Positions 1 through 25,400 of a stretch of DNA of 38,379 nucleotides are shown one piece after another. The position numbers and the translations under genes are program-made. Under the pieces are notes generated by a model, which worked only from the letters and a program-made list of their open reading frames with translations, did not search any database and was not told the DNA's origin. The stretch's first letter is position 1, and each line of letters opens with the position of its first letter. The stretch comes from a bacterium (GTDB taxonomy: Bacteria > Bacillota_I > Bacilli_A > RF39 > UBA660). Where the stretch lies: contig CAVIUL010000001.1 in NCBI GenBank assembly GCA_963645885.1, positions 22,265 to 60,643 on the forward strand. Direction: 5' to 3'.

Positions 1-3000
1 AATTAGAGTTTAAATCTTGAAAATGCAAAAGGTGTTGTTTGTTTAGATTATGAAGTAACTGGTAATGAATCTAAATAGCAAATATTTGGAATTGGTATTA
101 AAACAAAAAAACAAGTTATTGATTATCTTTATAATAAATTGCATATTAAAGGATTTTTCTTTGTAAGACAAAAGAGAATTCCAACAATTCTTTGTCAAGC
201 TTATACTATTGGTATAGATCCTCAAAGTAGAACTCCTATTTTACCAATAAGTACTAATTAGTTTGTTGCTGAAAGAATACTTAATGATGATAGACGACTT
301 CTTCATGATTTTACAAGTAGACTTTATAAAGATTTTAAATATAATCTAGTAAGAAAAGAAGGAGCTATATGTCCTGAATATGATATAGATACTCCTTATT
401 ATAATTCTATATTTACTGGAACTGAATTTCCTGTATATGAAGCTGATTTTTAGTCACCTAATAATTATTTATCTAATATGGGAGATAGACATTATTTTTC
501 AATAGGAACATCAAAACGTGAAAATGATGCTCCTTATGTTACTAAAATCATAGGAGTTGAAGATAATGTCAAATTAGTAAATATAGGTAATAAATTGTTT
601 GCAGCTAGAGCGGGTGAAGCAGAAGAAGCATTTAGATTTGAATACCTAAGTGAAAAAACAGAAAAAACAGAAGCAAATAATATAATAAGAGGTTCTTTTG
701 GACCATATTTAGGTATTACTGGTTATCCTTACTGTGGAAAAATTATAGATATAAAAATACCAGGATTTAATCATTTATCACAATCTGAAGTTTTTAAAAT
801 CAGATATAATGATAAATCTCCATTTTATGCTATATCAGAAAGAATTGCTATTAAAGATATTAGTAATTATTTTAGTGGTTTTCTAAATGAATTAGATAAT
901 GAAGACAAAGATGTATATTTAGAAAATTCTTTATATAGAGGAGATTGTTATATTTGTCAGTTTACACATAGATTAAATCGTAATTTCCAAGATCCTTCAT
1001 CTCCTGCAAATGATAAGATTGTTGACCCTAAATGTTGGTCTGATAATTTTGAATATGCTGATGGAGTTCTTAAAAAAGATAAATTTGATAGTATTAACTT
1101 AGGTGATGTTAATGCTATACAAATGGGAATGTGGGTTACATTTACAGTAAGATCTACTAACAATTTATGTATTCGGGCTATAGATGAATCTAATACAGAT
1201 GAATAGGGAATGTTTGGTAATTACAGAACATTTTATCCTTATGGACCTATGTCAGCAGAAGGTGCATACAAAATACCTGAAGCTTTATGTGTTAATAAAG
1301 GATTTAGTAAATCAGTATCTGAAAGAGTTAATTTTGAGGTACCTGATGTTCCTGCAATTAAAAATGATTTTACAAACAGAATAGCTTATTCAGATATTCA
1401 TGTTAATGATGCTTTTAAAAATGGATATAGAGTATTTAAAGGAACTCATTATAGAGATTATCCAAAAACATACGGTTCAATTACAAAATTAATAGAATTA
1501 CAAGGTAACTTAGTTTGTGTATTTGAACATGGTGTTGCTTTAATACCTGTTAATGAAAGAGCTGTTGCAGGAGAAGGAAGTGGAGGTAATATTTATATTA
1601 ATACATCTAATGTACTTCCTGAAAATCCAAAAATCATATCTGATACTTTTGGTAGCCAATGGAGAGATTCAGTTATAAAAACTCCTAGAGGAATATATGG
1701 AGTTGATACTATTGGTAAAAAGATATGGAGAACTAATGGATAGGATTTTGAATGTATTTCAGATTTTAAAATCCAAGAGTTCTTAAATTTAAATATTTCA
1801 CTTACAGAAAGAGAATTAGACCCTATTATAGGAGTTCGTAACGTAAAAACTCATTATAATAAGTTTAAACATGATGTAATGTTTACATTCTATGATAATC
1901 TTCATGGATTTGAAGAAAAAGTATGGAATGTTTGTTTCAACGAGTTAATGCAAAAATGGATTACTTTTTACAGTTGGGTTCCTAGTTACTCTGAAAATAT
2001 ATATAATTAGTATTTCAGTTTTGATAGAAATACATCAAAATGGATTACAAAGTTAGGAATAAGTAAAACAGATTCTGATTTTGCAGATGGAGTTACTTTA
2101 AGTAATAATATTATTCCTAATGATGCTAAAGCTGGAGATGTAGTTGGGTATTTATCATTATCTAATAGAACTATACCTTCAGGAGATGGAGTAAGCTATG
2201 ATATAAGTTACTCATTAGAAAGAGATAACTTTAGAAATGATAAATATTTTAGAATAGATAAAGTTTCCAAAGGAAATTCTATTTATGATAAAAATGAAGA
2301 TGGAACTACAAAATGGGCATTGTATTTAAAAGTAGATGCTACAGAATTATGTTCTGAACTTTATGTAAGAGGTAAAAAAACTATTGAATCTGGAAAAGTT
2401 GATTATGAAAAATTAATTGAAGAAATTAATGATAATACTAAACCAACTTGGATAGAACACTGTGTTAAAAATTCAGAATATGTTGTTTGTAAAGATGAAA
2501 GAGGAAGAAGAATAAATTTAGAAAAGAAATACAATTATAGTACATTAGTTAAACTTCTTAATATTAAAGCCACAATTTTAACTACAATTGATAGGACAGA
2601 TGTTCCTTTAGCAGAAGCTTATACTACAGGTATTACAAACCAATAGTATGTAGAATCTGGATATTATGAATCAGTAATAGCTGTATCTCCTAAATATAAT
2701 CTTTAGTTCTTAACTACTGATTTCTGGAAACATGGACAAGCAGGTATTATTGATTGTGCAGATACTATTAATCCTACTTATTGGTATGGTAGACAACATC
2801 CTTTTGAATTTGAATTTGTTGTTGCTGATAACCCACAATTACATAAAATTTTTGATAATTTAGAAATCATAAGTAATAACGCAGAACCTGAATCATTCCA
2901 TTATGAAATAGTTGGTGATTGCTATAGTTTTGCTAAAGATAAAAAAAATATGTATATTCGTTAGGAAGCAACTAAAGAATTATATCAATATAATGGATGT

Positions 3001-3675
3001 GATATTCTTTATGATACTAATTATATTGATTAGAATAAAGAAGTACATAGACCTATAGAAGGTAAATTAGATTCAGATGGAAAACAAGTATACGATAAAT
3101 CTACTATATTCCCTCTCTATTATTCAAGAGAAGATACTTTTAATGAAATTGAAGATTCTTATAAAGAAATGACAGCAGCTAACAAAGATTATGAATCTTT
3201 AGCTGGAGCTGAAATTGTTAAATATAATAATCTACAAGAATATCGTATTTGGAATCATGCTAAAGCTGCTGATATTACAAAAGTGGGAAGAATGTAGGGT
3301 AATATGCAATATAAAGAGGATAAATGGGATGTTCAAATTAATCCAATTAATATTGTAGAACGTAACGAAAAAGAATGGGGAACAGAAGATAGTACAGGAG
3401 GAACAGATTTAAATCCTAATAAAATACCTATTGTTTTATAGACTAATAGTATTCCTTCTGAGGTTTGTGATAAAATTCAAAGAGAAGGTACTGATATTCC
3501 TAAAAATTCTGAGGATAGAGCTATATATTCATGGGAGGTTGCAGGATTTAACGATTCTTCTAATAGTTCTGTCAAAGTAAAAGATAAATGGGTAAAGATT
3601 AGGATAAGATACTCTGGTGAAAAATTAGCAATTATCACTGCAATACGAACATTTTATAGTGGAAGTTATTCATAA
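1..3675 (+). CDS. Large virion/tail-associated structural protein, 5' partial (>=1,224 aa), TAG-recoded
   Basis: Frame 1 is open from base 1 to TAA at 3673-3675, apart from 13 in-frame TAGs. ORF-track fragments 478-1206, 1210-1743 and 2320-2646 all lie in this frame. The position directly upstream of cargo-like genes suggests a tail or muzzle-type protein, but I recognised no diagnostic motif. Confidence 0.8.
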
Positions 3676-6152
3676 TGTGGTATTTAAAAAAACAAAAACC
3701 TTTAAAATGCCAAATGTTTGGCACTAATGCTAGTAGTTTCTCTCTCAATAAAAATTTCTAGATGCCTAGTTTAACTTCTTCGCCACTTGCTACGTTACTA
3801 GGACAAACTCCTGAAACTAAACCAGATTTTTTTAATTTTAATGCAAATATACAAAATTCTCAAAATTAGACTAATTCTACAATAATTAATCCTGTTAAAT
3901 CTTTTACTGATACGGGTAGTAAAATAGTAAATGATTCTGCTTTAACATTAGGTTCTACATTAAGTCAATCTTCGGATACACTTACTAAAATATAGGGTCA
4001 ATAGATAAAAAATGATGCTATAACAGACTCTACAGGAGAGAGATTTAAATCAACAGGAGGTACTGATATTAAAGATATTGGTACTAAAAACAAATTTAGT
4101 GTTTCTGATGGTCTTAATTCTGGTTTTTCTGCATTAGGAAAAATAGGAGAAAAAGTAGGAGGTACTGCAGGACAAATAATGTCAGGTGTTAGTAATGTTG
4201 GTTCTAGTGTTATTAATTTAACAAAGACAGCAAAAGCTGCTGGAGGATTTAAAAATTTGTCTGGACTTGCTAAAGGAAATGCTGTTGCAGGTATTGCAGG
4301 AGCTGCTGCTGATATGATCGGCAGTTTTATGCCTCAAAAAACTGAATATGATGGACCTAAAGGCGATATTACATAGACAATGGATAGTGTTTATGATGGT
4401 ATAGCTGATGCTGCAATGTCTATGCCTGGACCAGGTATGATGATCGGTGGTATTATGAAAGCAGGATCTCTTTTAGGAAAAGGAATGAATGCTTTAGGAG
4501 GCGGTACCGATGGAATGTGTGTTTGTGCTGGAACAAAAGTCTTTAAAGCAAATGGAGAGATAATTAATGTAGAAGACTTAAAGAAAGAAGATGGCATTCT
4601 TGGTTGGGATGGTAAATAGGTGGTTCCACAATTAATACACGACTTTATAGAACCTAGACAAAAGAAATGTGTAGAAATTGTATTAAAGAATGGATATTCT
4701 ATTAAATGTAGTATTGACCACCCTATTTTAATAGATAATTCAAAAACTTGGGAATTTAAAAGAGCTGATAAATTAAAAATAGGAGACCTTGTAGGACTTG
4801 CTAATAATATAGATTATTGGGGAAATATTAATGTTCCCGAAGCTTATAATATAGGCAAAGAAGGTATTTTTAAAAATATCAAAAACTTTGATAAAGTTTC
4901 AATTTGTAATCTTTTAGCAGGAATATTTGATGTAAATGGTGATATATCTGTAAATAAGGGAAATTATTCTATAACTTTATATTCTTCTCTTTTAGAAGAA
5001 ATTGCAATACAATTTCATAAATTAGGAATATTTTCTATTATTAAAACAGATAAACATTATCTAAAAATACAAGATATTCCTTCTATTATTAAATTCTATG
5101 AGTTAATTCCTTTAAACGTATCTGATAAAAAAGAATAGCTTAAGAAAATATACAATACATTAAAAGACAAGGAAACCTTTAACCAATCTGAAGCTACTCA
5201 ATGTGAAATAGTATCTATAACACCTATTGGTATACAAACTGTGTATAATCTACAAGCTGATTATAATCACACTTATTTAGCTAATTGTATTATTACACAC
5301 AATACTTCTACAGACGCAATTTTAGGTAGTTCTTTCCTTAGCTTAACACCTATGGGACTAATAAATGGTTTTGGTGGTAAGAAAGCTGATACTATTACTA
5401 AAAACACTGATGCTTTTGAAACTGTAGGTGGTTCCTATTCTGGAGCTAATGCAAAAGTTGATGATGCACTTACTAAGAGTGGTAAAAAATATGGTTTATT
5501 TAGTAGTGGTGCAAGACAAGAAGCTAATCGTGAAATCGCAGAAGCAAAAAGGCAACAAAAAGTTGTATCTGAAATTGCTGATTAGAGTAGAGTAAATACA
5601 ACTTTACAACAATCTATGTCTGCAATTAATGCTAATAGACGAAAATTAGCATTAGAAGGTGGTTACGATTAGGCATCTATACGAGCTGGTAAACAAGGTA
5701 TGAGCATTGAACATACACCTACATAGATTGAATTAATCTCTCCTGTTTCTAAATTTAAAGAAGGAGGATCAGTTAATGTATTACCTGTAGGAGCTTTGCA
5801 TGCTCGTAAACATCATATGGATGTTGAAGGTATTACTGAGAAAGGTATTCCTGTTATAGATAATCGTGGTGAACAATAGGCAGAAATTGAGCATTCTGAA
5901 ATAATATTTAGACTAGAAGTAACTCAAAAATTAGAAGAATTAGAAAAGAAATATAGTGAATCTAATGATGATAAATATGCTTTAGAAGCAGGAGAACTTT
6001 TAGTAGAAGAAATATTGCATAATACAGATGATAAAACTGGTCTTATTAGTACTCTTAAACAAGGTGGAGTTATTAATTCTAAAACTACTATAGTTCAATC
6101 AGATATAGATAAAATGGTTAAACAAGCACTTATTAATATATTAACATAGTAA
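3675..6152 (+). CDS. Gly/Ala-rich protein (825 aa precursor, ~563 aa after splicing) carrying an intein; possible internal/ejection (cargo) protein
   Basis: The ATG at 3675 overlaps the upstream TAA (TAATG). Frame 3 is open to TAA at 6150-6152, with 12 in-frame TAGs. Track ORFs 4179, 4380, 4620 and 5241 share this frame. The N-terminal half has hydrophobic Gly/Ala-rich stretches (AVAGIAGAAADMIGS, GPGMMIGGIMKAGSLLG). The function of the extein is unknown. Confidence 0.8.
4518..5303 (+). mobile_element. Class-1 intein (262 aa) with a reduced LAGLIDADG-type homing endonuclease insert
   Basis: Block A is CVCAGTKVFKANGEIINVEDL, starting at Cys codon 4518. Block B is SIKCSIDHPILI (S-x-x-H). There is one clear LAGLIDADG motif, LLAGIFDVNGDIS. 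Blocks F/G are VYNLQADYNHTYLANCIITHN, ending at Asn codon 5301-5303 and followed by the +1 nucleophile Thr (5304-5306). The intein contains two in-frame TAGs (4617, 5136). Confidence 0.85.
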
Positions 6153-7036
6153 TGAAACAAAGTCAAGCTTTAATGTATAATATACCTATTTTTAATATAG
6201 GAGGTATACTTGCTAAAATAGCAAAATCAGCTAAAAACATACAAGGACAAGCTAATTTAGTAGGAAAAACAAAAAATCCAGAATTATTTAATCTGTTAAG
6301 CAAGTTAGCAAAAAGTTAGAAAGGTGGAACAAAACTTACAGAAAAAGAATCTAAAAAGTTAGTAACATTAGTTCAAAACTATAGAAGAAAGAATGTGCAT
6401 TACCAAGCACGAAGAAAAAAGTTTAATGAAGCTTTATCTGAACGAGCAGCTGCAGAACGAGCAGCTGCAGAACGAGCAGCAACTGAAGCTGCAGCAACTG
6501 AAGCTGCAGCAACTGAAGCTGCAGCAACTGAAGCTACTGGAACTACTGCAGCAACTACAGCCGCAGAACGAGCAGCTACTGCAGCACGAGCAGCTACATC
6601 TGCAGCTCAAGGAAGACTTGCTAAAGCTTGGGGAGTTGTTAAAAGACACCCTTGGATTACAGGAGGTGCTCTTTTAGGATTAAGTAATGGTTCTGTTAGA
6701 CAGGGTATTGGAGCAGGATTAAGTTATTGGACAACTCCAGTTAGTCAACGGGATTAGATTGGAACGCAATCTCCAACTGGATCTCAAATGCAAATAAGAT
6801 TAAATGATGGTTCAATTGTACCAGTAACAATGGGAGATGATGGAATTTTAACATTTGGTTCTACAACGGAAACTGAAGGATCAGATCCTACCGCAGACGC
6901 TATTGCTCAAGCTATCGCTGAAGCTAATGGTGCAGCTAGTACTGGTGCAGCTAGTACTCAAGCTCCATCTCTTGGTTCTTTTGCAACCAATGAAGAATTG
7001 AATGATGTCTTTGAAGATGACGCATGGGATCAGTAA
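6152..7036 (+). CDS. Ala/Glu/Thr-repeat protein with a central hydrophobic segment (294 aa), function unknown
   Basis: The ATG at 6152 overlaps the upstream TAA (TAATG). Frame 2 is open to TAA at 7034-7036, with 2 in-frame TAGs (6318, 6755). Track ORFs 6395-6757 and 6788-7036 share this frame. It contains the repeat AAERAAAERAATEAAATEAAATEAAATEA and the TM-like segment HPWITGGALLGLSNG. Confidence 0.75.
6440..6541 (+). repeat. In-frame 15-bp tandem repeats (gaacgagcagctgca x2-3, then actgaagctgcagca x3-4)
   Basis: Direct reading shows units at 6440, 6455, 6470 (12 bp), 6482, 6497, 6512 and 6527. Degenerate related units continue to about 6600. The repeats encode AAER/AATE pentapeptides. Confidence 0.9.
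6929..6958 (+). repeat. Perfect 15-bp direct duplication ggtgcagctagtact x2 (GAAST GAAST)
   Basis: Read directly: copies at 6929-6943 and 6944-6958, in frame within the 6152-7036 CDS. Confidence 0.85.
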
Positions 7037-7614
7037 TTATAAATAATAAAGAATATAAAGTAAAAGAAGCTAAAACTGAAGAAGAAAAACGCAAAGGATT
7101 ACAAGGAGTAGAAGAGCTTCCTGAAAATGAAGGAATGCTCTTTTACTTTGATCCTGATGAGGAAATTACTATGTGGATGGATAAAACTAAAATACCTCTT
7201 GATATTATTTTTATAAATGAAGATTATGAGGTAACTAAAGTTCATCATGGTATTCCTAATGATAAAACCCAAATATCATCTCCTGAAACTGCTTATGTTT
7301 TAGAAGTAAATCAAAATTCAGGTATTAAAGTTGGAGATGAGGTTGATTTTGATGATAATGATAAACCTCCAATTATGAAAGTTTTGGCTCCAGATGGTAG
7401 TACTTAGATGGAATTATGGGGTGGAGAACGTATAGTTAGTAGACGTGAAACCAAAATCCTCATAAAAAAAGCAAAAGCTGCAGAATTAGTAAAAGATACT
7501 CCTAAATATAAAAATAAATGTATTTCATTAGGTAAATATATGTTTAAAGTATTACGAGGTTAGGATAATAGACCTAATGAATATGTAGAAAATAAAAATG
7601 CTAAAACCGAATAA
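7024..7614 (+). CDS. DUF192 (COG1430-like) domain protein with a basic C-terminal tail (196 aa)
   Basis: The ATG at 7024 overlaps the upstream gene by 13 nt. Frame 1 is open to TAATAA at 7612-7617, with 2 in-frame TAGs (7405, 7561). The sequence KRKGLQGVEELPENEGMLFYF...ITMWMDKTKIPLDIIFINEDYEV...AYVLEVNQNSGIKVGDEV matches the DUF192 pattern as I remember it (GLm..l....GmlF, fwM.nt..pLDiiF, yvLE...G...i..Gd.v). Confidence 0.8.
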
Positions 7615-7683: not shown

Positions 7684-8046
7684 ATGAATATTACTTATAA
7701 AAACGCAGTAAAAAACGTAAAGAAATTTCAACAAGGTGGCCCAATGGGTCCAGAAGGTGCTCCTGCAGAAGGTGCTCCAGAAGGAGGTGAAATGCCAGCA
7801 GAGGGCGCACCTGAAGGTGGTGCTCCAGAAGGTGCTCCAGAAGGCGGTGGTGAGGATCCAATTGCTCAGTTAGTGCAAATCTTCGCACAAGGACTTCAAA
7901 ATCAAGATTGTCAGATGCTTGCACAGGGTGCACAAATGTTTATGGAACTCGCTCAACAAATGCAGGGCGGTGGTGGTCAACCAGCACCAGAAGGTCAGCC
8001 TGTATTTAGAAAGGGTGGTAAACTTGCATACAGAATTAAATATTAA
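7684..8046 (+). CDS. Small acidic PEGA-repeat / Gln-Met-rich protein (120 aa), TAG-free, function unknown
   Basis: This is an intact ATG-to-TAA ORF in the standard code. It is visibly GC-richer than its flanks. All 15 Gln codons are CAA or CAG, and 5 are CAG, which is rare elsewhere in the window. A promoter lies upstream and a terminator downstream. Confidence 0.85.
   Translation: MNITYKNAVKNVKKFQQGGPMGPEGAPAEGAPEGGEMPAEGAPEGGAPEGAPEGGGEDPIAQLVQIFAQGLQNQDCQMLAQGAQMFMELAQQMQGGGGQPAPEGQPVFRKGGKLAYRIKY
7750..7851 (+). repeat. Imperfect in-frame repeats of ccagaaggtgctcc-type units encoding (P/A)EG(A/G) repeats
   Basis: Read directly: PEGAPAEGAPEGGEMPAEGAPEGGAPEGAPEGGG. Confidence 0.7.
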
Positions 8047-13048: not shown

Positions 13049-16000
13049 ATGGAAAGAAGAGAACACGATATATTTATGGATATGCTAGCCAATCCTACTG
13101 CATCATTTGATACAATGGTAACAGTAGGATTGAATTCCTCTAACACTTCTCTACAGGATAGATCTGTATATGAAGGGAACAAATATGTGTAGGAATAGTT
13201 TAAAAATTCAGATGGAGAGTTTGATAAGAAAAAATTTGAGCAAGCATATACCATTGCCAAATCATATTACAATAATTTAGCCAATGCTGATTTTAATGAA
13301 TCTATGCAAAAACAAACTGTTTGGCATAGAGATAGTTTATTAGCACCAGAAGGCTAGAGAGAAAAAGGACCTAGATTCCAAGAATTTAATATGTCTAATC
13401 CTATGGAGTAGGTATTTGGCTTTGGAACTTTAGGAAAAATTGAAGAACCTACTAAGTCTTTAGATGAATTAGCTCAATCCCATAAAGTTTTAGCTAATCC
13501 AACTACAGCAGGAGCAAATTTAGAAAATGCTAAGTGGGAAGATGCTCCTAATGATAACTTTTTCGGCAATTTCTTTGATACTCTTGTTATTGCACAATGG
13601 GATTCTGATGGAGAACATATTGACCCAATAACTGGAGAAAAAGTAAAACATGAAAAAGGTGAGCCTAAATTAAATCAAAATGGAGAGTATTATTATGAAA
13701 AACTTGATGGGCGTGATGTTTATGGTCGTAGAGTTTTAAATAAAATGAATGTTTTGACAAAAGATGGTTCATTTATGAATAGGTTTGACTTTTTTGATTC
13801 AGACGATATTGAACAAAAAAGCATTGCAGGAACTACATTTAAAAATTTAGCTTTAGTAGGTTCCATGTTTATTCCTTATGTTGGTCCTTGGATTGCAGGA
13901 TTAAGTGTAGCTACATAGTTAGCAGGCTTAGGTGCTACGTTAGGTAAAATGGCTTTAGGAAGCGATAGTCCTGTATTGAATGAGATTGAAGGATGGTCTA
14001 AATCTGTAAATAGACAAACTGCAAAATCACAATATGCACAAGAGCATACATGGTGTTGGGAGAATTTTATCAATCTCATAGGTGATACTATGGGACAATT
14101 AAAAGAGTAGAGATTTATCTTTGAGAAAATTCCATCTGTATTTAAAGGAGCAAATATGTCTACCAAAGCAGGATAGGCTGAAAAATTAGCATAGCTTGAA
14201 GAAAAATATTCAACTGAAGCTAAAGAAGCTATAGATAAATTATTTAAAACTGGTAAAAATGGAACAAACTTTACTAAAAGTTCAATAGAATTACAAGAGA
14301 TAGCTCCTTTAAAAGCTCAAGCAGAAATGGATTCATTCATTAAAGGATATAATAAACTTGGAGAAGTTCTTAGTAAAGGTTATATGACAGGAATAACTGT
14401 AGCTGATACATATGGTGAAGCAAAACAAGCAGGAGCTTCTGATTTGGATGCTACTTTATTAACTTTAGGTTATGCTGCAGGTGAATTTGCTATACTTAAT
14501 ACAGGATTAGGTGAATGGATTTTACCTGAATTGAGAGCAGATAAATATAAAACACAAGCCATTAAAAACGCATTATTAAAATTAGACGATGAAGCTAAGT
14601 CTGCAATAAATAACGCATCTAGAGAAGTTAAACAAAGTTACGTTAAACGATTGTTTAATATGGGTAAAAGTATTGCTAACGCTGAATATGCTAATGGAAC
14701 AAGAACTTTGAAAGCAACTCTTGCAGCAGGTGTTGGGGAAGGTGTAGAAGAAGTTAGTGAAGAAGTTTTAGCTGACTTTTCTAAAGCTTGTTTTGATACA
14801 GTTAAATGGTTACAAGGTGATAATGTACGATTAAATACATTTGGATACGACTTTAAAACAGGAAAATGGGATGGTAAAGAAGTTCTTGACAGATATGGTA
14901 TGTCTCTTGTAGGAGGTGCAGTAGGTGGTTCGTTAACTAATGTCGGTACTAGTTACAAAACTTTTAAAGAACTTGATTCTATGACATCTGAATAGGCTAT
15001 TCAAGAGTTAGTTTATATGCATAGAAATGGTACTTTAAATAAATTTGAAGAAAGTATTGATAAATCCCAATTAGCTAATCCTGGTAATTCTGCTACTAAT
15101 TTTGAAGTAAAAGATGGAGTAATATTATATGCTCCAGGAACTTAGGAAAATAATCAAGACTTATTTGCTAAACAAGCATTGCATCAATAGGTTAAAATTA
15201 TAAGAGATATTCTTGATGCAAATGGAGCAAATTTATCTGATGATTCTATTTTATAGAAACAAACTGAAATGTTAGGAGATTTACGTTTTAATGCTTTACA
15301 TAAATCAACAACAGCAGGAGGATTTATTAATGAATTTAATAAATTAAGTTCAGATGTTATTAAATTAACAACTCAAATTAATAATCTAGAATCATCTGAT
15401 TTAGATAGCAATAATGACGGAACGGTTACAGATAAAGAAAAAAGACAGAATGAAGTAAGTCAAGACCATAAAGAACAAATTAAAACATTGCAAAAAACTT
15501 TAAATGATACTAAAACTAAATTATAGGATTTAATTGATGGAAAACGATCTTATGAATTTGTATCTGATGCTTTGTTTGAAATGACTACTGATTTAAGTGG
15601 TAGATTTACAGCTGCAAGTTTTCCTTTATATGTAGAAGCTAAATATCATAAAAAATATTCAGATTTAACAGAGAATGAAAAAGCTATATCTTGGGAAGAA
15701 TACGAAAATTGGAAAACTTCTGAAGGAAGAGATAAGATTAGAGATATGGCAGCTATTTATAGGACTATTTCTGAACAAGCTAGTAAAGTTATTAAAAAAC
15801 ATTCTGATGAATATTTAAAAGGAGATACACATATTCGTAATTTTAACAACCTCATCACAAGAATATTTAATACAATTGATGGTAATTCTGAATCTGATTG
15901 GTTAAGTAATGCTCAACGTATTTAGGACTCTAACTTTAATCAAATTGAAGCAAATTTGATTGCTCAATTTGGAACAGATGAGGATAAAAAAGCATTATAG

Positions 16001-19000
16001 GTTTATGTAGATAGAATGAAATCTATTGATCCTACAATGTCTGAAGAAGAAAGAAAACAAGAATAGGCATAGATAGGTCTTGACTATTCGAATAAACAAG
16101 CAGAAATTATTCTTAATAATCTCTCTAAATTTATTCAACCTTTTATTGATAGCGGGACAATTAATACTGAAACAAAAAATCAACTATTAAAAACATTAGA
16201 ATAGCTTAAACAAATATCAATCAATAAGACAAATGAAGCTACGATGTATGATGCTTCTGAAGAAGAGCAAGATTAGTTGGCAGAAAAAACTGTATAGGTT
16301 CAAAATGCTATTGATGAAATATCAAAATTAGGTAATACTTCTTTTGAAAAGAATTTGAATGAATTTTCTATTGCTATAGGTAATGAACCTATTAATATGA
16401 CACAATTACTTGAAAGATTAAATACCTCTTTCAATGATGTGTCTAATAATATCACTAGGTTTAATATGGATGAGCAATTGTATAAAGATTTAGACAATGC
16501 TATTCATACTATTGAAATGTATCAAGCTGCAATAAAAGGAGCTAGAACAGATAATGCAGGAACTGGAAATTATTTCGGATATAATGCTACTTTAAATGAG
16601 ATAGCTAAGAAATCTGAAGGAGATTTTCCTGAACTTGCAGAAATTGATAAGCTTTCTGCAGATGTATTTATTGCAGATATTAATACTAATTTAAGTAAAC
16701 TTTTATTTTTAAAATAGTTATATCAAATAAACCAAGGTCAAAAGATGACCAGATAGGATAGAGTTGCTGAAAGAAAAGATATTTTATTCTATAGAAGAAT
16801 GAAAAGTATTGTTTCTGTTCCTGATGATGATCCACTAAAATCATGGGAAGGATTTCTTGAATTAAAAAATACTATAGAAGCAGCAACCCTTCATGAAAAT
16901 TTTAGAGACTCTGAAATTATTCAAGAAAAAGATAAAGAGGCTTTTGAGAAAGAAAACATACTTATTGAAGATGCTATATATGACTTTTTCTAGAAAAATT
17001 AGGAAAAAATAAAAGATTCCACTAAGTTATCTGAATTTATAAACGGACGTCATTTGAATCTTTATACAGAAGCTAAATAGATTCTGAATGAAGGTACTGA
17101 TGTTATGGATGATAACTCTATGTTATGGTGGATAGCAAGCCGTTGTGCAGTAAAATCTTCAGCATTTCATAATAGATATTCTTAGATAATTAGTGATAAA
17201 ATAGCACCTATTGCTACTCAAGAATTAGCAGTTTATAATAACTATGCAAATATAGTAAATGGTAATGTTTTTACAGCTTTTGCAAAGGCTTTTAGAGAGT
17301 CTATGGTAAAAGATTGGAAAAGTAAATCTGTAGAAGAAAGAAAGAGAATTTTAACAAGTTTAAATAACTCTGAGGCTTTAGCAGATGATAAATTTGTAGA
17401 TTATGCTTTAAACTTTTTACCTGTTCCTAGATTTGCTAATGTAGTATTAACCGAAGGAATTGCAGGCAGTGGTAAAACTTCTAGTGTATTTACATAGACA
17501 GTTACAATGCTTAAAAAGTTTAATCCTGACGTTTTAAAAAATGTTGCGATTGTACATGGAGCCTCTAAATCAAGTGCTGAAGAAATTCAATCATTATTAG
17601 AAATAGAAAATTCTAAAAGCTACGATAGAGCAGGCTGGATGAAAGAAATTTCTAGTCAATGGAAAGAATATTTAATTGATCCAAAAACTAACAAACATCT
17701 AATAGAAAAATCTGCATATACATTTAGTTCTGAAAATGAAATTCGATCAGCATTAAATATTAATCAAACAGACACACCTCCAAGTCTTATTATTATTGAT
17801 GAAATCTCCAAATTCTCTACTTATGATGTAGATTTAATTAATGATTTTGCTAAAAAATATGGAATTACTGTCTTAGTAGCAGGAGATTTTGATCAATCTG
17901 GAGTTGTAGGATAGCATCCTATTGCAGTAAATGGAGAAACATTAAATTGGCTTCCTGAATTACAAAGAACAAACTTTATTAGGTCTCCTAAATTAGGAGT
18001 ATCTATGAGAACTGATAATTCTCTTAAAACACGAAATCAACAAAAGGTTCAAGCTTATATGCAAAATCACACTTCTGAAGATTTAATATAGCTTGAATGG
18101 TTTCAAGACGAAACTGGTTTATATGGAGATAGAGTCATTAGTTATGAATTTAATGACCCTGATGTTAATGTTAACGATTTAAGAAATCAAAAAGGAAAGG
18201 TTGTTGATAGTGTTATAGGACAAGTTGATAAATTAATTTAGACTTTAAAGCCAGGAGAAAAAATAGGTTATATATTTAATGACAAATCATCTCCTATTTA
18301 TCAAAAATTAGCATCTGATGAATATAAAAATTTTATAGATTTAAAAGAAGGTGGATCTGCTCAAGGATTAGAAAGTAGATATTATGTTATTGAAGCTGAT
18401 CCCACAATTGGACTTTCTAGTTCAGATAATATGGGCTAGAAAATGGCTGAAGATAACTATTTAAAAGAAATTTATACTGGAATCACTCGAGCATAGCAGG
18501 GAAGTATTTTAATTATGCCAACAGACATGGGACCTAAAATAGGTACTGTTTAGGTTAAATCTAAAATTAATGAAATTATTAATCCTGCAATAATTAAAAG
18601 TTATTCTATCAAAAGAAAAAATCTTTTAGAAAAAATTACTACTTCTTAGGATATTGAATATGTTCCTCGAGACAAAGAGGCATTAGATACCAAAAAACCT
18701 TCTGGAGAATCTAAAACTGGTTTAGATGAAGGAGTTACTTTACCTCCTCTACCTGATAATGAAGATACTACAAAAAAATCAGCTACAGTAAAACCTGATA
18801 GTACACCTGATGCAATTACACCTCCAGAAACAGTAGATTTTGAAACTCTTCCTTCTGGAGATTAGGAAGAATTATCAAAAATTCAAGAAAATGTAATTAA
18901 GAATCCTAAAACCGAAGAACCCTGGGATACTAATGATACTAAATCTTTAATTCCTTATGGATAGATTGTTTCGGTACAAGGTGAATATGGTGTTATAAAA

Positions 19001-22000
19001 GGAATTCAAACGAAATCTGATGGAAATCATAAATATTTAATTGAGACAAAAGAAGGTGAAAAGGAAATAAACTATAAAGATATAACTCAACTTATATCTA
19101 ATGCTAAAATAGAATCACCTGTAGTTTTAGATCACTAGGAAATGGTTAATAGATATGGAGAAATTGCAAATGTTGAATCCATAACTGTTAATCATAATGG
19201 TATTGAACTTACACTACCTTTATGTCAAATACCTTTCAAATATAAGAAAGAAACTGGAACTAATAATATGATCAACTATTTGCATAGAAATATTGTAGTA
19301 GTTAAAATTGGTAATGTTCACATTCCTTTCTATATGAGTACTGGTAGAGGTGGTAAAGAAAATGTACAACCTGGATTATGGTATCCTTTCTTTGGAATAA
19401 AAGATGGATGGTTAAATAAAGGTACTCAAGAAGATATTAATAATTTTTATGGAAGTCCTATTCTTAAAATTGTATCGGAACAATTAAATAATGTATTAGG
19501 AACAGGATATACTGATGATATAAAAGGTCCTTTAACATTTGAAGAAAATGTTGATTCTATTCAAATTTAGTATATAAATTAGGATTTAAATCCAACTGCT
19601 AATGGACACTCTGATACACTTTAGAAATTTAATGATAACGTAAAATAGACTATTGAAGCTATTGATAAATCTTTATCTGAAATTATTCCTGACATATCAG
19701 GAACTGAAGCTCCAAAATTGAGTTATGAAGACGATACTGCTCCTATTAATTTCAACAGCGATACTCTTGATGATAAAACTTATCAAGATATGGTTGATAA
19801 AGAAAATGAACCAACAGCTTTACCTGGATCTCAAGCAGTAAATGAGGGGTCTAAAATTGCAATTACTATGTTATTACATTCATTTAATACTTTTGAAACA
19901 GGTGTTTTATGGGATGAAGAAGGAAATCCAGTTCCTGTTGGAGATTAGACATGGGCAGATGCACGTATTGATAGTGTTAATGGATTATTAAAATTAGATA
20001 GGTTTAAAGGAAAGAAAAAAGAATATTATTTAAATGCATTAGGTTTACTAAGAAGTCATTTATTTAATACTGAAGATAAAGCCGAATTAGTTAAAAAACT
20101 AGAAAAAGTTTTGGGTATAGACGGCATTTATCTTACTTTTGCTTTAAAGAGTTCACCTAGACCTGGAGAAGGTAATAAATCCAAAGGAAAAGAATTTGTA
20201 GAAGAGTAGCCAAGTCGTTTTAGTAAAGGTATTAGTGAGACTACAGAATTTAATGGTTCATCTGATTCAAGATCTCATGAATGGCATCCTAAATCTCTTG
20301 TTGCAATTATTGGCACAAATGCTGATGGTGATGTTTTAGAACTTCCACTTTTAGCAACATCTTCACCATTTACTTTATTACAATTAGAAAATGATTAGAA
20401 ACAAAAAGTATTCCCTGATGTTTTAAGTACATTTGAAAGTTTAAAGAGTAATGGAATGGGATATTATGATATTGCTAATAAAATAATATCCAAATTTGAA
20501 AATGTTAACGAATACAAAGATTTAATAGACTTATTTAAATTATTTGTACGTACAGACAGAAATATAGAATATTTAAGAGATCCTAACTGGACTATTGCTC
20601 GTAATTTAAATTTACAAGGTGCAATTTTTGCTAAAGATAGAGGTAAACTTATGGGAGTTCCTGGATTTGATTATGATGCAGATAGTACTCCTGAATCTGA
20701 ATGGAGCACATTAGATTCATTATATGCAGATCCTCAAAGATATGTAACAGAATAGATTTTTTCTTCTGTAAATGATACAACTACTACTGTAAACGGTAAT
20801 GAAATTCAATTCTCTAAACCTGGACATGCATTTGTATTAGCGTCTTATGATAGAAGTTTAAGTACTGACGAGGAAGTTGTAGAATACTTTACCAAACAAT
20901 GTAAAGATCCTAGTTTACCTAAGAAAGTTACTCAAGTATATATTGTTCCACCAAAAGCATCTTTAGAAGAATATATTGAAAATTTACGCAAAATTCTTGA
21001 TAAAAATGAACATGGAGCATTGCCTATTGGTCAATTCTTTACTTCATATAAGTTACTATAGGTTCTTTTAACAAATGATTCATTTAAAGAAATATTAAAT
21101 AAAAGAGTTCCAGGTTTATTACAAAAAACTCAAGATGCAATAAATTATATAAAAGAAGCTTTTGATGCAGCATAGCAAGCTACTTCTCTTAGTGAAAAAG
21201 CAAAATTAATGGGAGAAGTTAGGCAAAGATTATTTGAAGCTCAAGATTGGTCTAGTATAATTGGAGGAACAGCTAAACCTGTTAAGTTGGCTGGATTATT
21301 AGATGGAGTAATATTAAATTTCATCTATACAAAAAGTTCACTTCAATCATTAATTACTGGTGATTATGGAGTTTCTTTTGAATTTGATCAAGATAATTTT
21401 AATCTATTTAAAGGTATTTTAACACAAGCAGGTATTGATGGAGTTAGACATAATATAAAGATTCCAAAGAATGCACCTCGTGTAGGACCTTTTGTAGTAG
21501 TTTCAACTAATTATTCTCTAAATGGAAAACCATTTAGAGTTCATAATAAATTAGATTCATATACTTTTTCAGGAGATATGTCTAGTCTTATTCATAGTTA
21601 TGTTGATGCTTTGCGTCCATCTAAGCCAGATAAAGATGGAACAATACATTATGCAGGAGCTGATACATATAGATATTTAAAAGGAAAATCTAATATAAAT
21701 AATTCTGTTAAATCTAAAGATGATATTGATAGAGATAATCTTGAAAAAACATTCAAAAAGAAAGGATTAGATATTAATCAAATCTTAACAAACGCAGGAT
21801 TAATAGACATATATTAGAATCAACCAGTAGAAGATTCTATGAATAGAATTATAAATACAATTAACTAGACTATTCCTAATAGAATTGCATTCAAAGTTGG
21901 AGGAGATTTAATTATAAGTGATCCTGTAGAAGAACTTGGTAATTAGACTTTCTTAATTGACTCAAACGACAATCCTATTACAGATTTAGAACCATTATTT

Positions 22001-22480
22001 GATAATTTTGGAGTAGCTAATTTTAAAATAAGAGTTAATGATGTTGAATATTTATCAAGTTATAATAAATCTACTGGGACTATTAGAATGACACCTCCTG
22101 GAGAATATCATGAAAATGCAGCAACTGCAGTTAAATTATCTATTACAGAACAAAACTTTAACGAGTATATTGCTGATGGTAAAGAAGCTCTTTTTGAATG
22201 GATTGATGAAAACGGATAGTATTACGATTGGGAGATAGAAGACCTTTTTAACTCAACATCACTTGAGGAAATGCAAGAAGTTATTAGTCAAATGACTAAA
22301 TTAGACGATGATGCATTCTTAGATTTAGAAAAATATACAGAAAGTGATGAGTTTAAACAACTTGATGATAGAAAGAAATAGATTGTAAAAGAAATAAACG
22401 AATTAGAACGAGCTATTCGAGATAGAAATTATGATGAAAATCAAGAAACTTGTAAAATTGATATAACTTTTAAAGTATGA
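13049..22480 (+). CDS. Giant protein (3,143 aa) with N-terminal hydrophobic/TM-like segments and an internal SF1 (RecD/Dda/Pif1-like) helicase domain
   Basis: The ATG at 13049 lies 2 nt after the upstream TAA. Frame 2 is open for 9.4 kb to TGA at 22478-22480. I checked every gap between track ORFs and found 52 in-frame TAGs and no TAA or TGA. The hydrophobic run is LALVGSMFIPYVGPWIAGLSVATQLAGLGATLG (about 13850-13950). Confidence 0.85.
17456..18493 (+). other. SF1 helicase core motifs inside the 3,143-aa protein
   Basis: Motifs read in order: Walker A GIAGSGKT (17456-17479); Walker B/motif II LIIIDEIS; motif III VLVAGDFDQSG; motif V-like GGSAQGLESRYYVI; motif VI YTGITRA (TGITRA at 18476-18493). 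They are collinear across 5 TAG-separated ORF fragments. Confidence 0.7.
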
Positions 22481-25400
22481 ATAAATGTGAATTAAATAAT
22501 TCATCATTACTTTAGATTAAAGATTTAACAGCCCAACTTCTTAAACGTGGAGTGAAAGAACGTTGGGATGTTAACTCTTTAAAATCTAATTTTAATGAAT
22601 TTATCAAATAGGTATTAGACACCTATAAAATGTCTAATAATGATGATATAAAATTAGTTGCAGACATTATGTATACTCAAATACCTAGAGCTAAAAGAAT
22701 AGTAGCTTTAGATCCTGAGTATTTATCTATGAATAATGTAATTAACTTATTAGATGAAGCTGTATAGGGTGTTGAAAAAATAGATACCAAATCTGCAAGC
22801 ATAGAAAAAATAGAAGAAGGTCCTCAAAATAGATTACAAGCTTCAGACATCTTTTTAGATAAAGCTTATGGAGGAGCTGTTAATGTACGAAACATTTTCT
22901 GTAAACAAATAGATCAAAATTTATTTGATTGCATGTTTATTAATAGAGGATCTATCAATACTAAATTAGGAATTGTAGGAAAAACATGTGATTTAAATAA
23001 TAACATTAGAGAATATCAAGACTTTTTGTTGCAAAAAATCGTCGAGTATCTAAATACAGATGTATTAGATATGAGAGTTCAAGGAGAAGTAAAAAATATT
23101 CTTACAAATCCTAGAATGTATAATAGAGGGAAATATACTAAAGCTTTAGATATTTTATCCCCTTATATTAATACCTATTTAAAATCTTTAGAAGGACAAA
23201 CTGATCAATTACGTCAACTGTTTAAAAATAGATTAAAAGATCCAAAATCTAAAAGAAGACTTGATGCATTTAATGCAATGGTCATTCTAAATAATTTTGA
23301 TAGTTATGTTTCTAATATGCTAGGCAAAGCTATTCAAATAAAAGACTTTGGATTATTTACAGGAGAAGATAAATATCAAATTTCTGACTAGACTGCTAAT
23401 GTATATACAACTTGGAGAACTTCAGAAAATATTAATATTGCAAATGAAGCAGATGCTATTACAAAATTAGCAGTAAATACAACTCCTTTGTTAAATTGGA
23501 ATAACGATACTCCGTCAGATGGAAAATATTTAAAATTCCAAGATTTTCAACATATTATTTCTAAAATAAAAGATTTAACATATAATCCAGCAGCTTCTTC
23601 TATAATTTTTGATGATAATTTTGAATTAAGTCGCTCTGATATTTGGGATAGTTTATCAAAAGAAACTTAGGAATATTTAAAAGGTAAATCTCTTAGAGCT
23701 GCTATTAGTTTGGTTAGAAGTAATCCTAGAGCTTATCTTCATTCAGTTTTTGAAATCTTAAGTAATAATAAATTTAAAAAATTAAATCCTCAATTATATT
23801 CTAAGTTCTATAATGATGAATTAAATAAATTATATTCTATTTCACAAGGATTATTTAATGGAAATTATAGTTTAAGGACCTTAACTGATGTTAAAAGTCC
23901 TAATGATTTTTATTCTTATTTAACTTAGACAGCTGATTCTATATTTAATGTATAGTATTTACAATACTATAGAGATGATAATGGGTTAATAAAAAGTCGT
24001 ACCTTATTAGACCAAGGTGTAAATAATGTAAGAAGATCTATTGAACAAGCTATAAACCTAACAAATAGTTATAGGTTAATCGGCGATTGGAAGAAATATT
24101 CTGAACCTTTTAATTTTTAGGAAAAATATAATAAAGATAATTCTGCATTAACTGAATTATCTTTTAATATTCCAAACACTGATTTTAGAGCTACTGTAGA
24201 TTCTACTGGTAAGGTAAGAATAACTAAAAACGGTTTCGGAATTAACTATTCTGAAAGTTATGAAGAATTAAAGCCTTTTATAGATAATATTCTAAAATTA
24301 AATTTAGAAGAAGATACCGTTTTTGAAGAAGCTATATTTGAAGAATTAGGAGATTCTACAGTTTAGGATTTGTCTGCATTTGCAACAAGAGTTATTTTTA
24401 ATTAGTATGTTAATTAGAAATTTTTATTAGATGTATCCCCATAGAATAGAGATATTATTTTATCTTCTATTTATGGAAAGACTATTCCTAATTGGAATTA
24501 TGCAATTGATGAATTAGGATTGATTCATAAATCAGATTTATCAATATTACATAAAATATCTGTTGCTAAAAGTAATGTGCAAGGTTTAATGACATCTACT
24601 CAAGTAAAAGATTCTCAAGGAAAAGCATAGAGTAGACAAACTTTAAGTAGATTATTAGGTTCTTTTAATTCTCAATATGAATTATAGGAAAGATTACCAG
24701 ATTCAATATCAAATCATTTTATGATATTGAATACACCTGGATTATTTGAAGGAGTCTATACAGTAAAAGAATTTGCTGGTGAAAATGTAGATTCCAAAGA
24801 AACTACAAGTATGACAGTACGAGAAATGGCATTATCTCAATTTATGTATGATTATATAGGAGGAATAATGCCGCAAGATGAGAATAATTTAGTTGGTAAT
24901 GGACATATTATGTTATTACCTTCTGTAAACTCTGATAAAAGTACTATAGGAAGAATTAAAATTAATCTAAATTCTAAAATTAATATTAATGGAGAATAGA
25001 AAGCTCTAAAAGATTTAACAACTATTGAATTAGAACAAGTAATAGATAAAGAATTTGGAGATTTCTATGAAAAAATGGTATTTAAAATCCAAAAAGATTG
25101 GAGAACTTTATAGGATTTTATAGGACCTAATCTTGGTATGCCTAGATTAGATTTAGATTTTTTAAATAATTTTTCTGAGTTTAATACTTGGTATGCTAAT
25201 AATAGAAAAGAAAGCGATCCAAAAAGAGTAGATGACTTTATTAAAAAGAAAGTTTTAGAATATAATAAAGTTCATAGACTTTCTCCTTTAGAATTAATAG
25301 ATCAAGTTCATTTCAAATCTAATAAAAATGGAAACCTTTCTATAAACGAAGCAATACTTGCACAAATAGCTCGGTTTAAACCATCATCTTCTATATTTAA

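What the first reader, a model, noticed from the sequence alone, without database searches (positions are those of the whole stretch)
4518..5303. Intein inside a Gly/Ala-rich virion-operon protein, itself written in the recoded code
All splicing hallmarks are present: Cys1 in a canonical block A (CVCAGTKV), S-x-x-H in block B, and a terminal ...ITHN followed by Thr+1.

Three things are unusual:
- The host gene is not a replication or packaging enzyme, the usual intein hosts. It is a low-complexity Gly/Ala-rich protein in the tail/cargo region, with the insertion at GGGTDGM|TSTDAILG.
- The endonuclease insert is small. It has only one convincing LAGLIDADG motif (LLAGIFDVNGDIS); a possible degenerate first motif (EAYNIGKEG) lacks the normal signature, so homing activity may be lost or the enzyme may act as a dimer.
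- The intein carries two in-frame TAGs (4617, 5136). It can therefore only be translated and spliced when TAG is suppressed, which points to long residence in a recoded genome.
Basis: partly seen in the sequence, partly recalled or inferred. Interest (0 to 1): 0.7.

Follow-up and report, generated by a model that had tools for sequence, protein, structure and literature searches.

The report
Decaying intein in crAss-like phage protein
A self-splicing protein insert (an intein) whose homing nuclease has partly decayed interrupts a virion protein of a gut crAss-like phage that reads the stop codon TAG as glutamine; it is real, but it is one member of a widespread intein lineage of a kind already described.

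Summary
Window 4518-5303 encodes a 262-aa class-1 intein (Cys1, S-x-x-H, His-Asn, Thr+1). It scores above the curated cut-offs of Pfam Intein_splicing and both TIGRFAM intein models, and its predicted fold matches solved inteins. It sits in frame in an 825-codon gene (3675-6152) directly downstream of the crAss muzzle gene, at the most conserved motif of that protein (GGGTDGM|TSTDAILG).

Relatives show the same site empty (most), holding a 367-376-aa intein with two LAGLIDADG motifs, this 262-aa form, or 132-140-aa mini-inteins. One pair has 98% identical exteins with and without the intein.

The window's intein is a deletion derivative. LAGLIDADG motif 1 is gone and the motif-2 catalytic Asp is Asn, so homing activity is almost certainly lost while all splicing residues are intact.

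TAG means Gln here, and every related intein examined also carries in-frame TAGs.

Inteins with TAG codons in recoded crAss-like phages, and inteins in phage structural proteins, are already published. This is a new member of a known kind, in a host gene for which I found no published intein report. The host's function (an ejected, envelope-penetrating protein) is inferred, not shown.

The parts
1..3675 (+). 3' part of the crAss muzzle (tail gatekeeper) gene; context that fixes the position of the host gene. Its TAA stop (3673-3675) overlaps the host gene's ATG by one base.
   Evidence: Pfam PF25731 crAss_MUZ 80 bits (cut-off 27) and PF25729 crAss_MUZ_C 30.4 bits. 13 in-frame TAGs.
3675..4517 (+). 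N-extein (281 aa from the ATG at 3675). Residues 150-281 are Gly/Ala-rich with glycine-zipper-like segments. It ends ...NALGGGTDGM.
   Evidence: Relatives have the same motif. The database twin P0001 was called from the second Met, at 3714.
4518..5303 (+). Intein, 262 aa, class-1 type.
   Evidence: Pfam and TIGRFAM hits above their cut-offs. In the AlphaFold model this region has pLDDT 65-89, and the top 50 Foldseek PDB matches are all inteins or Hint domains.
4518..4847 (+). N-terminal Hint half (intein residues 1-110). Block A CVCAGTKV lies at 4518-4541 and block B C-S-I-D-H-P at 4707-4730. A 15-aa deletion relative to full-length relatives lies at about 4731-4751.
   Evidence: TIGR01445 matches residues 1-72. 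Invariant C1, S65, D67, H68 and P69 in alignment A1. Coordinates.
4839..4865 (+). Deletion scar 'EAYNIG|KEG'. In full-length relatives this reads AYVVGLLIGDGSYG..., followed by about 73 aa holding LAGLIDADG motif 1 and the first half-domain.
   Evidence: Alignments.
4848..5183 (+). Remnant of the LAGLIDADG homing endonuclease (intein residues 111-222), second half-domain only. Motif 2, LLAGIFDVNGDIS, lies at 4911-4949, with Asn (4935-4937) where relatives have the catalytic Asp. A further 16-aa deletion lies near 5037-5069.
   Evidence: PDB phmmer: residues 117-214 match PI-PfuI 227-332. LAGLIDADG_3 scores below its cut-off. Alignments. It is less conserved than the Hint parts.
5184..5303 (+). 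C-terminal Hint part (residues 223-262). Block F VYNLQADYNHTYLAN lies at 5241-5285 and block G CIITHN at 5286-5303.
   Evidence: TIGR01443 matches residues 242-262. Invariant columns. Coordinates.
4617..4619 (+). In-frame TAG (intein residue 34), read as Gln. It is shared with the full-length inteins of P0004 and P0046; P0025 has CAA there.
5136..5138 (+). In-frame TAG (intein residue 207, in the endonuclease remnant). It is unique to this lineage among those compared.
5304..6152 (+). C-extein (282 aa), starting with Thr+1 (TSTDAILGSSF...). It holds the conserved ...GALHARKHHM...KGIPVID...QQAEIEHSEIIFRLEV... module and ends TAG-TAA (6147-6152).
   Evidence: Invariant columns.

Best explanation
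Window 4518-5303 is a genuine class-1 intein. The 825-aa precursor is translated with TAG read as Gln. The Hint domain then excises itself (Cys1 attack, transfer to Thr+1, cyclisation of Asn262) and joins ...GGGTDGM to TSTDAILG..., giving a 563-aa mature virion protein.

The intein belongs to a lineage that occupies this one site in the gene downstream of the muzzle gene in large (about 150-190 kb) TAG-recoded crAss-like phages. That lineage spread by LAGLIDADG-endonuclease homing. The copy here is at a late stage of the homing cycle: three deletions removed LAGLIDADG motif 1 and other segments, and the catalytic Asp of motif 2 is Asn. It can therefore no longer home, but it must still splice because the host protein is needed.

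Shown: intein identity, clean insertion, the deletion history, horizontal transfer of the full-length form, and TAG = Gln. Inferred: that splicing actually occurs, that the endonuclease is dead, and that the host protein is an ejected, envelope-penetrating cargo-type protein.
For: - Intein models score above their cut-offs. The intein segment folds confidently and matches PI-PfuI, VMA, GyrA, DnaB, RecA and gp41-1 inteins.
- C1, S65-x-x-H68, H261-N262 and Thr+1 are present and invariant across relatives.
- The standard-code homologue MT835470 reads GVGTDQM|TTTDKIL without interruption. Of 267 family proteins held, 194 show the empty-site motif and 18 have a homologous intein exactly there.
- The P0004 extein (376-aa intein) is 98.1% identical to P0002 (empty site).
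- The full-length inteins of P0004 and P0046 are 90% identical while their exteins are 59% identical, which indicates horizontal transfer.
- The insertion lies in the densest run of invariant columns of the host family, and the junction DNA is conserved between occupied and empty alleles.
- Deletions and the D-to-N change. The Hint parts are more conserved than the endonuclease remnant (76% and 75% against 48% versus P0130).
- Code: TAG-as-sense doubles ORF content and gives ORFs of 3149 and 3311 codons. TAG pairs mainly with CAA/CAG in relatives, including at invariant Gln columns inside the intein.
- Host context: muzzle gene upstream; conserved synteny in all relatives; one family member has an added phage tail lysozyme domain.
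Against: - There is no experimental evidence of splicing.
- Block B has Ser rather than the commoner Thr, and the +1 nucleophile is Thr, the least common of the three allowed residues. Both are invariant in the lineage.
- No suppressor tRNA lies in the window, so the decoding agent is not seen.
- The host protein has no detectable homology to crAss001 cargo protein gp45 (PF25725 not hit; hhalign probability 1.6%) or to any PDB chain. Its model is low-confidence (pLDDT 43). Its cargo or ejection role rests on gene position, composition and one lysozyme-fused relative.
- The comparison with the closest relative has too few differences (2 nt in the intein) to test selection.
Confidence: 0.88

Rival explanations
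1. The Hint domain no longer splices. It is a relic, and the gene is a pseudogene or yields a protein with a permanent 30-kDa insert.
For: The endonuclease part is clearly decaying. Nothing here demonstrates activity.
Against: Every catalytic position (C1, S65, H68, H261, N262, T+1) is intact and invariant across 18 same-site relatives. The Hint parts are more conserved than the remnant. The 825-codon frame is open. An independent sample has the same intein with 1 aa change in 262. The insert sits in the most conserved motif of an otherwise conserved protein.
Confidence: 0.05
2. The Hint domain acts as an autoprocessing (cleavage-only) module, like bacterial intein-like or Hedgehog domains. 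It would cut the virion protein into N and C fragments as a maturation step rather than ligating them.
For: Foldseek also lists Hedgehog and BIL2 domains among the matches. Pfam PT-HINT is listed weakly on the mini-intein relatives. Ejected proteins are often processed.
Against: The best matches are true inteins. A +1 nucleophile and a terminal His-Asn are both present. Most homologues, including a 98% identical one, are single uninterrupted chains across this site, so the mature functional form is the joined protein.
Confidence: 0.04
3. The single-motif endonuclease remnant is still active, working as a homodimer like I-CreI, or it has a retained DNA-binding or structural role.
For: The same truncated architecture is kept in P0130, whose extein is only 51% identical, so it has persisted for a long time. 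The remnant is still recognisably similar to the second half-domain of PI-PfuI.
Against: The acidic residue at the end of the motif is Asn in both truncated lineages (FDVNG, FDSNG). By established knowledge of LAGLIDADG enzymes (the I-CreI D20N mutant; PI-SceI D218 and D326), this residue binds the catalytic metal. The remnant evolves faster than the Hint parts. Mini-inteins with no remnant at all exist at the same site, so it is dispensable for splicing.
Confidence: 0.05
4. The 262-aa segment is a normal conserved domain of the protein, not an insertion.
For: None found.
Against: 194 of 267 family proteins held, and 75 of 77 IMG/VR loci, lack it.
Confidence: 0

Closest known systems
Inteins of recoded crAss-like phages (TerL inteins of Delta-group cMAG OBYQ01000140; intein-rich Zeta group), Yutin et al. 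2021, PMC7886860
   Same: Hint-type inteins inside late genes of crAss-like phages, with multiple in-frame TAG codons in both the extein and the intein. The Zeta group has 145-192 kb genomes and a high intein and intron load. Relatives of this window lie on contigs of about 150-190 kb.
   Different: The host gene is the protein downstream of the muzzle gene, not TerL. The text I could read does not mention this host (figures and the FTP annotations were not available).
PI-PfuI, PI-SceI and VMA-type LAGLIDADG inteins (PDB 1dq3, 1vde, 7qsu)
   Same: A Hint splicing domain interrupted by a LAGLIDADG endonuclease. These are the best sequence and fold matches.
   Different: Those have two LAGLIDADG motifs with catalytic Asp residues. 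Here the first half-domain is deleted and the remaining catalytic Asp is Asn. Full-length relatives (P0004, P0046) do have the canonical architecture.
Inteins in actinobacteriophage structural proteins (portal, minor capsid, tape measure), bioRxiv 10.1101/2025.01.02.630785
   Same: Inteins in virion structural or tail proteins rather than replication enzymes, with evidence of local horizontal spread and site switching.
   Different: A different phage group, different host proteins and the standard genetic code.
crAss001 cargo protein C1 (gp45, Pfam PF25725), Bayfield et al. 2023, PMC10172136
   Same: The gene lies immediately downstream of the muzzle gene and upstream of the giant RNAP-associated genes. 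It has an N-terminal Gly-rich, membrane-like segment and is predicted to be largely helical or unstructured.
   Different: No significant sequence similarity and no PDB hit. It is a positional analogue, not a demonstrated homologue.

Membership tests
Intein (class 1, Hint fold) | Hint splicing domain recognised by curated models and by fold | tested here: met
   PF14890 60.9 bits (cut-off 35.8), TIGR01445 31.5 (24.5), TIGR01443 16.0 (15.6). Foldseek top 50 are all inteins or Hint domains.
Intein (class 1, Hint fold) | Nucleophile (Cys/Ser) at position 1, and block B (T/S)-x-x-H | tested here: met
   C1 is present, as is S65-I-D-H68. All are invariant in alignment A1.
Intein (class 1, Hint fold) | C-terminal His-Asn followed by Cys/Ser/Thr at +1 | tested here: met
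   ...ITHN|T. The same holds in 24 related inteins.
Intein (class 1, Hint fold) | Precise in-frame insertion relative to intein-free homologues | tested here: met
   MT835470 homologue; P0002 and P0003; 98.1% identical exteins with and without the intein.
Intein (class 1, Hint fold) | Protein splicing activity | not testable with these tools
   Needs expression of a TAG-to-CAA construct, or virion proteomics.
LAGLIDADG homing endonuclease (two-motif, intein-borne) | Two LAGLIDADG motifs, or half-domains forming a pseudo-dimer | tested here: not met
   Motif 1 and about 73 aa are deleted. PF14528 scores 15.2 bits, below its cut-off of 22.5.
LAGLIDADG homing endonuclease (two-motif, intein-borne) | Acidic metal-binding residue at the end of each motif | tested here: not met
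   The motif reads FDVNG where full-length relatives have FDTDG.
crAss cargo protein C1 (gp45, PF25725) | Sequence homology to gp45 / PF25725 | tested here: not met
   PF25725 was not hit at E <= 1, although gp45 relatives carry it. hhalign probability is 1.6%.
crAss cargo protein C1 (gp45, PF25725) | Gene position directly after the muzzle gene, before the giant RNAP-associated genes | tested here: met
   crAss001 gene order.
crAss cargo protein C1 (gp45, PF25725) | Packaged in the virion and ejected | not testable with these tools
   Needs virion mass spectrometry or cryo-EM of a cultured relative.
TAG-to-Gln recoded phage (code 15-like) | In-frame TAG in conserved genes; TAG aligns with Gln codons in relatives | tested here: met
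   All 77 IMG/VR family genes have 3-31 TAGs and 0 TGA.
TAG-to-Gln recoded phage (code 15-like) | Suppressor tRNA with a CUA anticodon | tested here: inconclusive
   No tRNA was found in the 38-kb window. The rest of the genome, probably about 170 kb, was not available.
Crassvirales, Zeta group | Phylogenetic placement by TerL, portal or MCP | not tested
   Those genes are not in the window. Consistent indirect signs: crAss muzzle and ring genes, 150-190 kb contigs, and muzzle only 23-26% identical to cultured crassviruses.

The most novel reading that the evidence does not exclude
The intein lineage at this site is 'code-locked'. Every copy examined carries in-frame TAG = Gln, including at invariant Gln positions in block F, so it could spread only among TAG-recoded phages. 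The 262-aa half-endonuclease form is kept with the same deletions in lineages whose exteins are only 51% identical. It may persist because the remnant, or the invariant Cys1-x-Cys3 pair, has acquired a role, for example timing or gating the maturation of an ejected, envelope-penetrating protein.
Probability: 0.1. Interest if true: 0.6.

Novelty: new member of a known kind. Interest (0 to 1): 0.35.

Why it matters
It adds a well-documented case to the published picture of intein-rich, recoded crAss-like phages. A single site in a tail or cargo-module gene shows every stage of the homing cycle side by side: empty, full-length, half-decayed and mini. A second site nearby is occupied by a related intein.

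For annotation, it shows that this gene needs both TAG read-through and intein removal to be read correctly.

For biology, it marks GGGTDGM|T(S/T)TDAILGSSF as the functionally critical core of a large family with no annotation (1,776 clusters at 50% identity). That family is probably part of the crassvirus ejection machinery.

The compact mini-inteins at this site could interest protein engineers.

None of this overturns current understanding.

Tried and rejected
- **Host protein identity:** the spliced extein matched nothing meaningful in Pfam, NCBIfam or PHROGs. A family profile against all PDB sequences gave 0 hits.
- **Structure of the host:** AlphaFold of the intein-free homologue P0002 gave pLDDT 43, too poor for a fold search, so I did not run one.
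- **Homology to crAss001 cargo proteins:** hhalign of the family profile against gp45 and gp46 found nothing. A search for gp45 relatives, intended for a profile-profile test, returned only sequences at least 96% identical, which are useless for a profile.
- **What TAG encodes:** using the single standard-code relative was too weak (Q at 4 of 28 positions). I replaced it with codon-level comparisons.
- **'Inteins only in recoded genomes':** uninformative, because all 77 IMG/VR loci are TAG-recoded.
- **Selection on the endonuclease remnant:** the window and its closest relative differ by only 2 nt in the intein.
- **Phage group:** the Zeta-group reference genome PV725988 is not in the phage collection.
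- **Other inteins:** long family members without my intein-HMM hit carry no other Hint domain. No second related intein lies in the window.
- **Rejected reading:** a group I intron encoding a free-standing LAGLIDADG protein. The insert is in frame and has both Hint halves.
Full report
**1. The observation**

Translating window 4518-5303 gives 262 codons beginning CVCAGTKV and ending NCIITHN. In-frame TAGs lie at 4617 and 5136. The segment is preceded by ...GGGTDGM and followed by TSTDAILG....

It is not a chance resemblance:
- Pfam Intein_splicing scores 60.9 bits (E 1.6e-16, cut-off 35.8).
- TIGR01445 (N-terminal splicing region) scores 31.5 bits (cut-off 24.5).
- TIGR01443 (C-terminal region) scores 16.0 bits (cut-off 15.6).
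- LAGLIDADG_3 reaches only 15.2 bits, below its cut-off of 22.5.

The closest solved sequence is the second half of the endonuclease domain of PI-PfuI (1dq3). An AlphaFold model of the near-identical database protein P0001 folds the intein segment with pLDDT 65-89, while the exteins stay below 50. The 50 best Foldseek matches in the PDB are all inteins or Hint domains, including mini-inteins at target TM-scores of 0.8-0.89.

**2. The genome and its code**

Reading TAG as sense roughly doubles the ORF content of the window. It yields an unbroken + strand series of genes, including ORFs of 3149 and 3311 codons. The other reassignments do not have this effect.

CAG is almost absent, and TAG makes up about a third of CAA+CAG+TAG codons in every gene. 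In two closer relatives, the codons aligned to window TAGs are mostly CAA or CAG (19 of 57 non-TAG partners; no other amino acid exceeds 6).

Inside the intein itself, invariant Gln columns alternate between CAA, CAG and TAG among relatives. These are window residues 38, 240 and 246, the last in the block-F motif NLQAD. TAG therefore means Gln.

No tRNA gene lies in the window.

**3. The host gene and its neighbourhood**

The host ORF is 3675-6152. Its ATG overlaps the upstream TAA by one base and it ends TAG-TAA. It has 825 codons, or 563 after removal of the intein.

The upstream ORF is the crassvirus muzzle protein (PF25731 80 bits; PF25729). Downstream lie an Ala-rich repeat protein, a DUF192 protein, two unknown proteins and the two giant ORFs. 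The same order recurs in every relative I fetched, with a crAss ring-protein gene further upstream.

In crAss001 the gene after the muzzle gene is cargo protein C1 (gp45). It is stored partly in the tail barrel and is proposed to be ejected first and to help form the trans-envelope channel (PMC10172136; gene order). The host protein here occupies that position but is not detectably homologous:
- It does not hit gp45's Pfam family PF25725.
- hhalign gives 1.6% probability, with only a 25-column match between Gly-rich segments.
- A family profile finds nothing in the PDB.

An intein-free homologue models poorly, as helices plus long unstructured stretches (pLDDT 43).

The family is large: at least 4,948 hits in the clustered database and 1,776 representatives at 50% identity. 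It has no Pfam annotation.

One member, P0256, keeps the family core and adds a C-terminal phage tail lysozyme domain (PF18013, 45.8 bits). Together with the gene position and the glycine-zipper-like N-terminal half, this makes an ejected, envelope-penetrating role the best inference. It remains an inference.

The phage is a deep crAss-like lineage. Its muzzle protein is only 23-26% identical to those of DAC15, cr118_1 and phi14:2. Relatives sit on contigs of about 150-190 kb, the size range of the intein-rich Zeta group (PMC7886860). I did not test this placement phylogenetically.

**4. A clean insertion at the protein's most conserved motif**

A standard-code relative (MT835470) reads ...GVGTDQM|TTTDKILDSKF... 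with no interruption. Among 267 family proteins held, 194 show the empty-site motif and 18 carry a homologous intein at exactly this junction.

P0004 (376-aa intein) and P0002 (empty) have exteins that are 98.1% identical. The junction lies in the densest block of invariant columns of the family: G275, G277, T278, M281 | T282, D285, L288, S290, F292.... The DNA around it is conserved between occupied and empty alleles (GGTACCGATGGAATG|AC...).

So the host region just upstream of the site is Gly/Ala-rich (35% G+A), but the site itself is not low-complexity filler.

**5. Where this copy stands in the intein's life cycle**

Same-site inteins come in three sizes:
- 367-376 aa, with two LAGLIDADG motifs (P0004, P0046, P0127, P0225, P0259);
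- 262 aa (the window, P0001 and P0130);
- 132-140 aa mini-inteins with no endonuclease (11 proteins).

Alignment shows the window's intein is a deletion derivative of the full-length form. It lacks 15 aa after block B, about 73 aa that include motif 1 (AYVVGLLIGDGSYG...) and the first half-domain, and 16 aa later in the endonuclease.

In the surviving motif the terminal acidic residue is Asn (FDVNG, against FDTDG). By established knowledge of LAGLIDADG enzymes, that residue binds the catalytic metal, so homing activity is almost certainly gone and a homodimer rescue is unlikely.

P0130 shares the same deletions and the same Asp-to-Asn change although its extein is only 51% identical. The truncated form is therefore old, not a recent accident.

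The Hint parts are better conserved than the remnant: 76% and 75% against 48% versus P0130, and 82% and 88% against 64% versus P0046. This is as expected if splicing is under selection and the endonuclease is not.

The full-length form has moved horizontally. The P0004 and P0046 inteins are 90% identical while their exteins are 59% identical.

A related intein (42-62% identical by region) occupies a second site about 25 residues upstream in another sub-clade (GPVG|C...HN|TLVGG).

**6. The TAG codons in the intein**

The intein's TAG density (2 of 262 codons; 2 of 10 Gln-type codons) is not different from the extein's (10 of 563; 10 of 30) (Fisher p = 0.36 and 0.69). Its GC3 (0.134) matches the host gene.

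All nine further intein-bearing relatives for which I fetched DNA are TAG-recoded, with 2-12 TAGs per intein. The two intein-bearing IMG/VR loci hold 9 and 13. The TAG at 4617 is shared with P0004 and P0046; the one at 5136 is private.

But the whole clade is recoded: 77 of 77 IMG/VR family genes carry 3-31 TAGs. This is a property of the clade rather than a special feature of this intein, and a 'code barrier to homing' cannot be tested with one standard-code member.

**7. Comparison with what is known**

Yutin et al. 2021 already describe inteins whose ORFs contain multiple TAGs in a recoded crAss-like TerL gene, and an exceptional load of inteins and introns in the 145-192 kb Zeta group. A later paper on Zeta phages repeats this. 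Inteins in phage portal, minor capsid and tape-measure proteins are documented in actinobacteriophages, with site switching and local spread.

I found no paper naming this host gene as an intein host. The searchable text did not include the figure and FTP annotations of Yutin et al..

**8. Verdict**

It is a new member of a known kind: a class-1 intein with a decayed LAGLIDADG endonuclease, in the gene at the cargo-protein position of a TAG-recoded crAss-like phage. It belongs to a widespread same-site lineage that shows the full homing cycle.

Splicing competence, endonuclease death and the host protein's role are well-motivated inferences that need the experiments listed. Interest is moderate (0.35).

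Noticed in passing
relatives P0044, P0057, P0074, P0075, P0081, P0086 (locus L013 3001-5943); corresponds to about window 4440-4450: A second intein insertion site lies about 25 residues upstream of the window's site (..NFGPVG|CVCAGSRV...NGIITHN|TLVGGIMKGG). It holds a full-length LAGLIDADG intein related to the window's (42%, 33% and 62% identity across the three regions). The +1 Thr replaces the Met found in empty alleles (GPVGMLVGG). This looks like a site switch within one gene.
   Followed up: partly
window 3714-4517 compared with L094 6001-6804: Against the closest relative (P0001), the N-extein has 25 nt differences (3.1%). 19 of the 23 changed codons are non-synonymous, all within residues 111-265. 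The muzzle gene, the intein and the C-extein are 99.7-99.9% identical, while the gene downstream is much more divergent. This points to a mosaic, or to diversifying change in the Gly/Ala-rich segment. The changes do not look like a DGR (adenine-specific) pattern.
   Followed up: partly
protein P0256 (815 aa), residues 619-732: A member of the host-protein family carries an added C-terminal phage tail lysozyme domain (PF18013, 45.8 bits). This is a clue that the family acts at the cell envelope during ejection.
   Followed up: partly
window 6152-7036: The gene after the host gene encodes a 294-aa Ala/Thr/Glu-rich protein with perfect 15-nt tandem repeats (6440-6480 AERAA units; 6476-6535 ATEAA units). 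Its only database signal is a weak PHROG 'tail fiber' hit. It is 61% identical to the L003 counterpart.
   Followed up: partly
window 7024-7614: A DUF192 (PF02643, 85 bits) protein is conserved at this position in every relative examined, including the standard-code phage MT835470. Its function in a virion or cargo module is unknown.
   Followed up: no
window 7684-8046: A small (about 120 aa) Pro/Glu/Gly/Ala-rich protein with degenerate 15-nt repeats (GAPEG units, 7751-7849) lies between the DUF192 gene and the next large gene. Similar 100-120 aa genes sit at the same place in relatives.
   Followed up: no
window-wide (all + strand genes): CAG is almost eliminated (0-8 per gene) while TAG supplies about a third of Gln-type codons, as if TAG has replaced CAG. 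The host gene ends with TAG immediately followed by TAA (6147-6152).
   Followed up: partly
window 13049-22477, 22477-32406, 32397-33455, 33455-38257: Two giant ORFs (3143 and 3310 aa) sit where crAss001 has its RNAP-associated cargo proteins. The first has a P-loop (GIAGSGKTS). The second has a DYDID motif that may be the RNAP metal-binding site. The next gene has an HExxH motif (LHELMH) and the last a PD-(D/E)XK-like motif (IIDLLIVD...ILDYK). None was verified with profile searches.
   Followed up: no
all related inteins (alignment A1): Cys1-Val2-Cys3 is invariant in all related inteins at both sites. A conserved second Cys two residues from the catalytic Cys1 could allow a redox-sensitive disulfide. 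This is pure speculation and was not tested.
   Followed up: no
L011 5558-6499 (locus of P0259): In this more distant relative the gene following the host gene encodes a DUF723 (PF05265) protein instead of the usual Ala-rich protein, so the synteny there is not conserved. It may be another mobile insertion.
   Followed up: no
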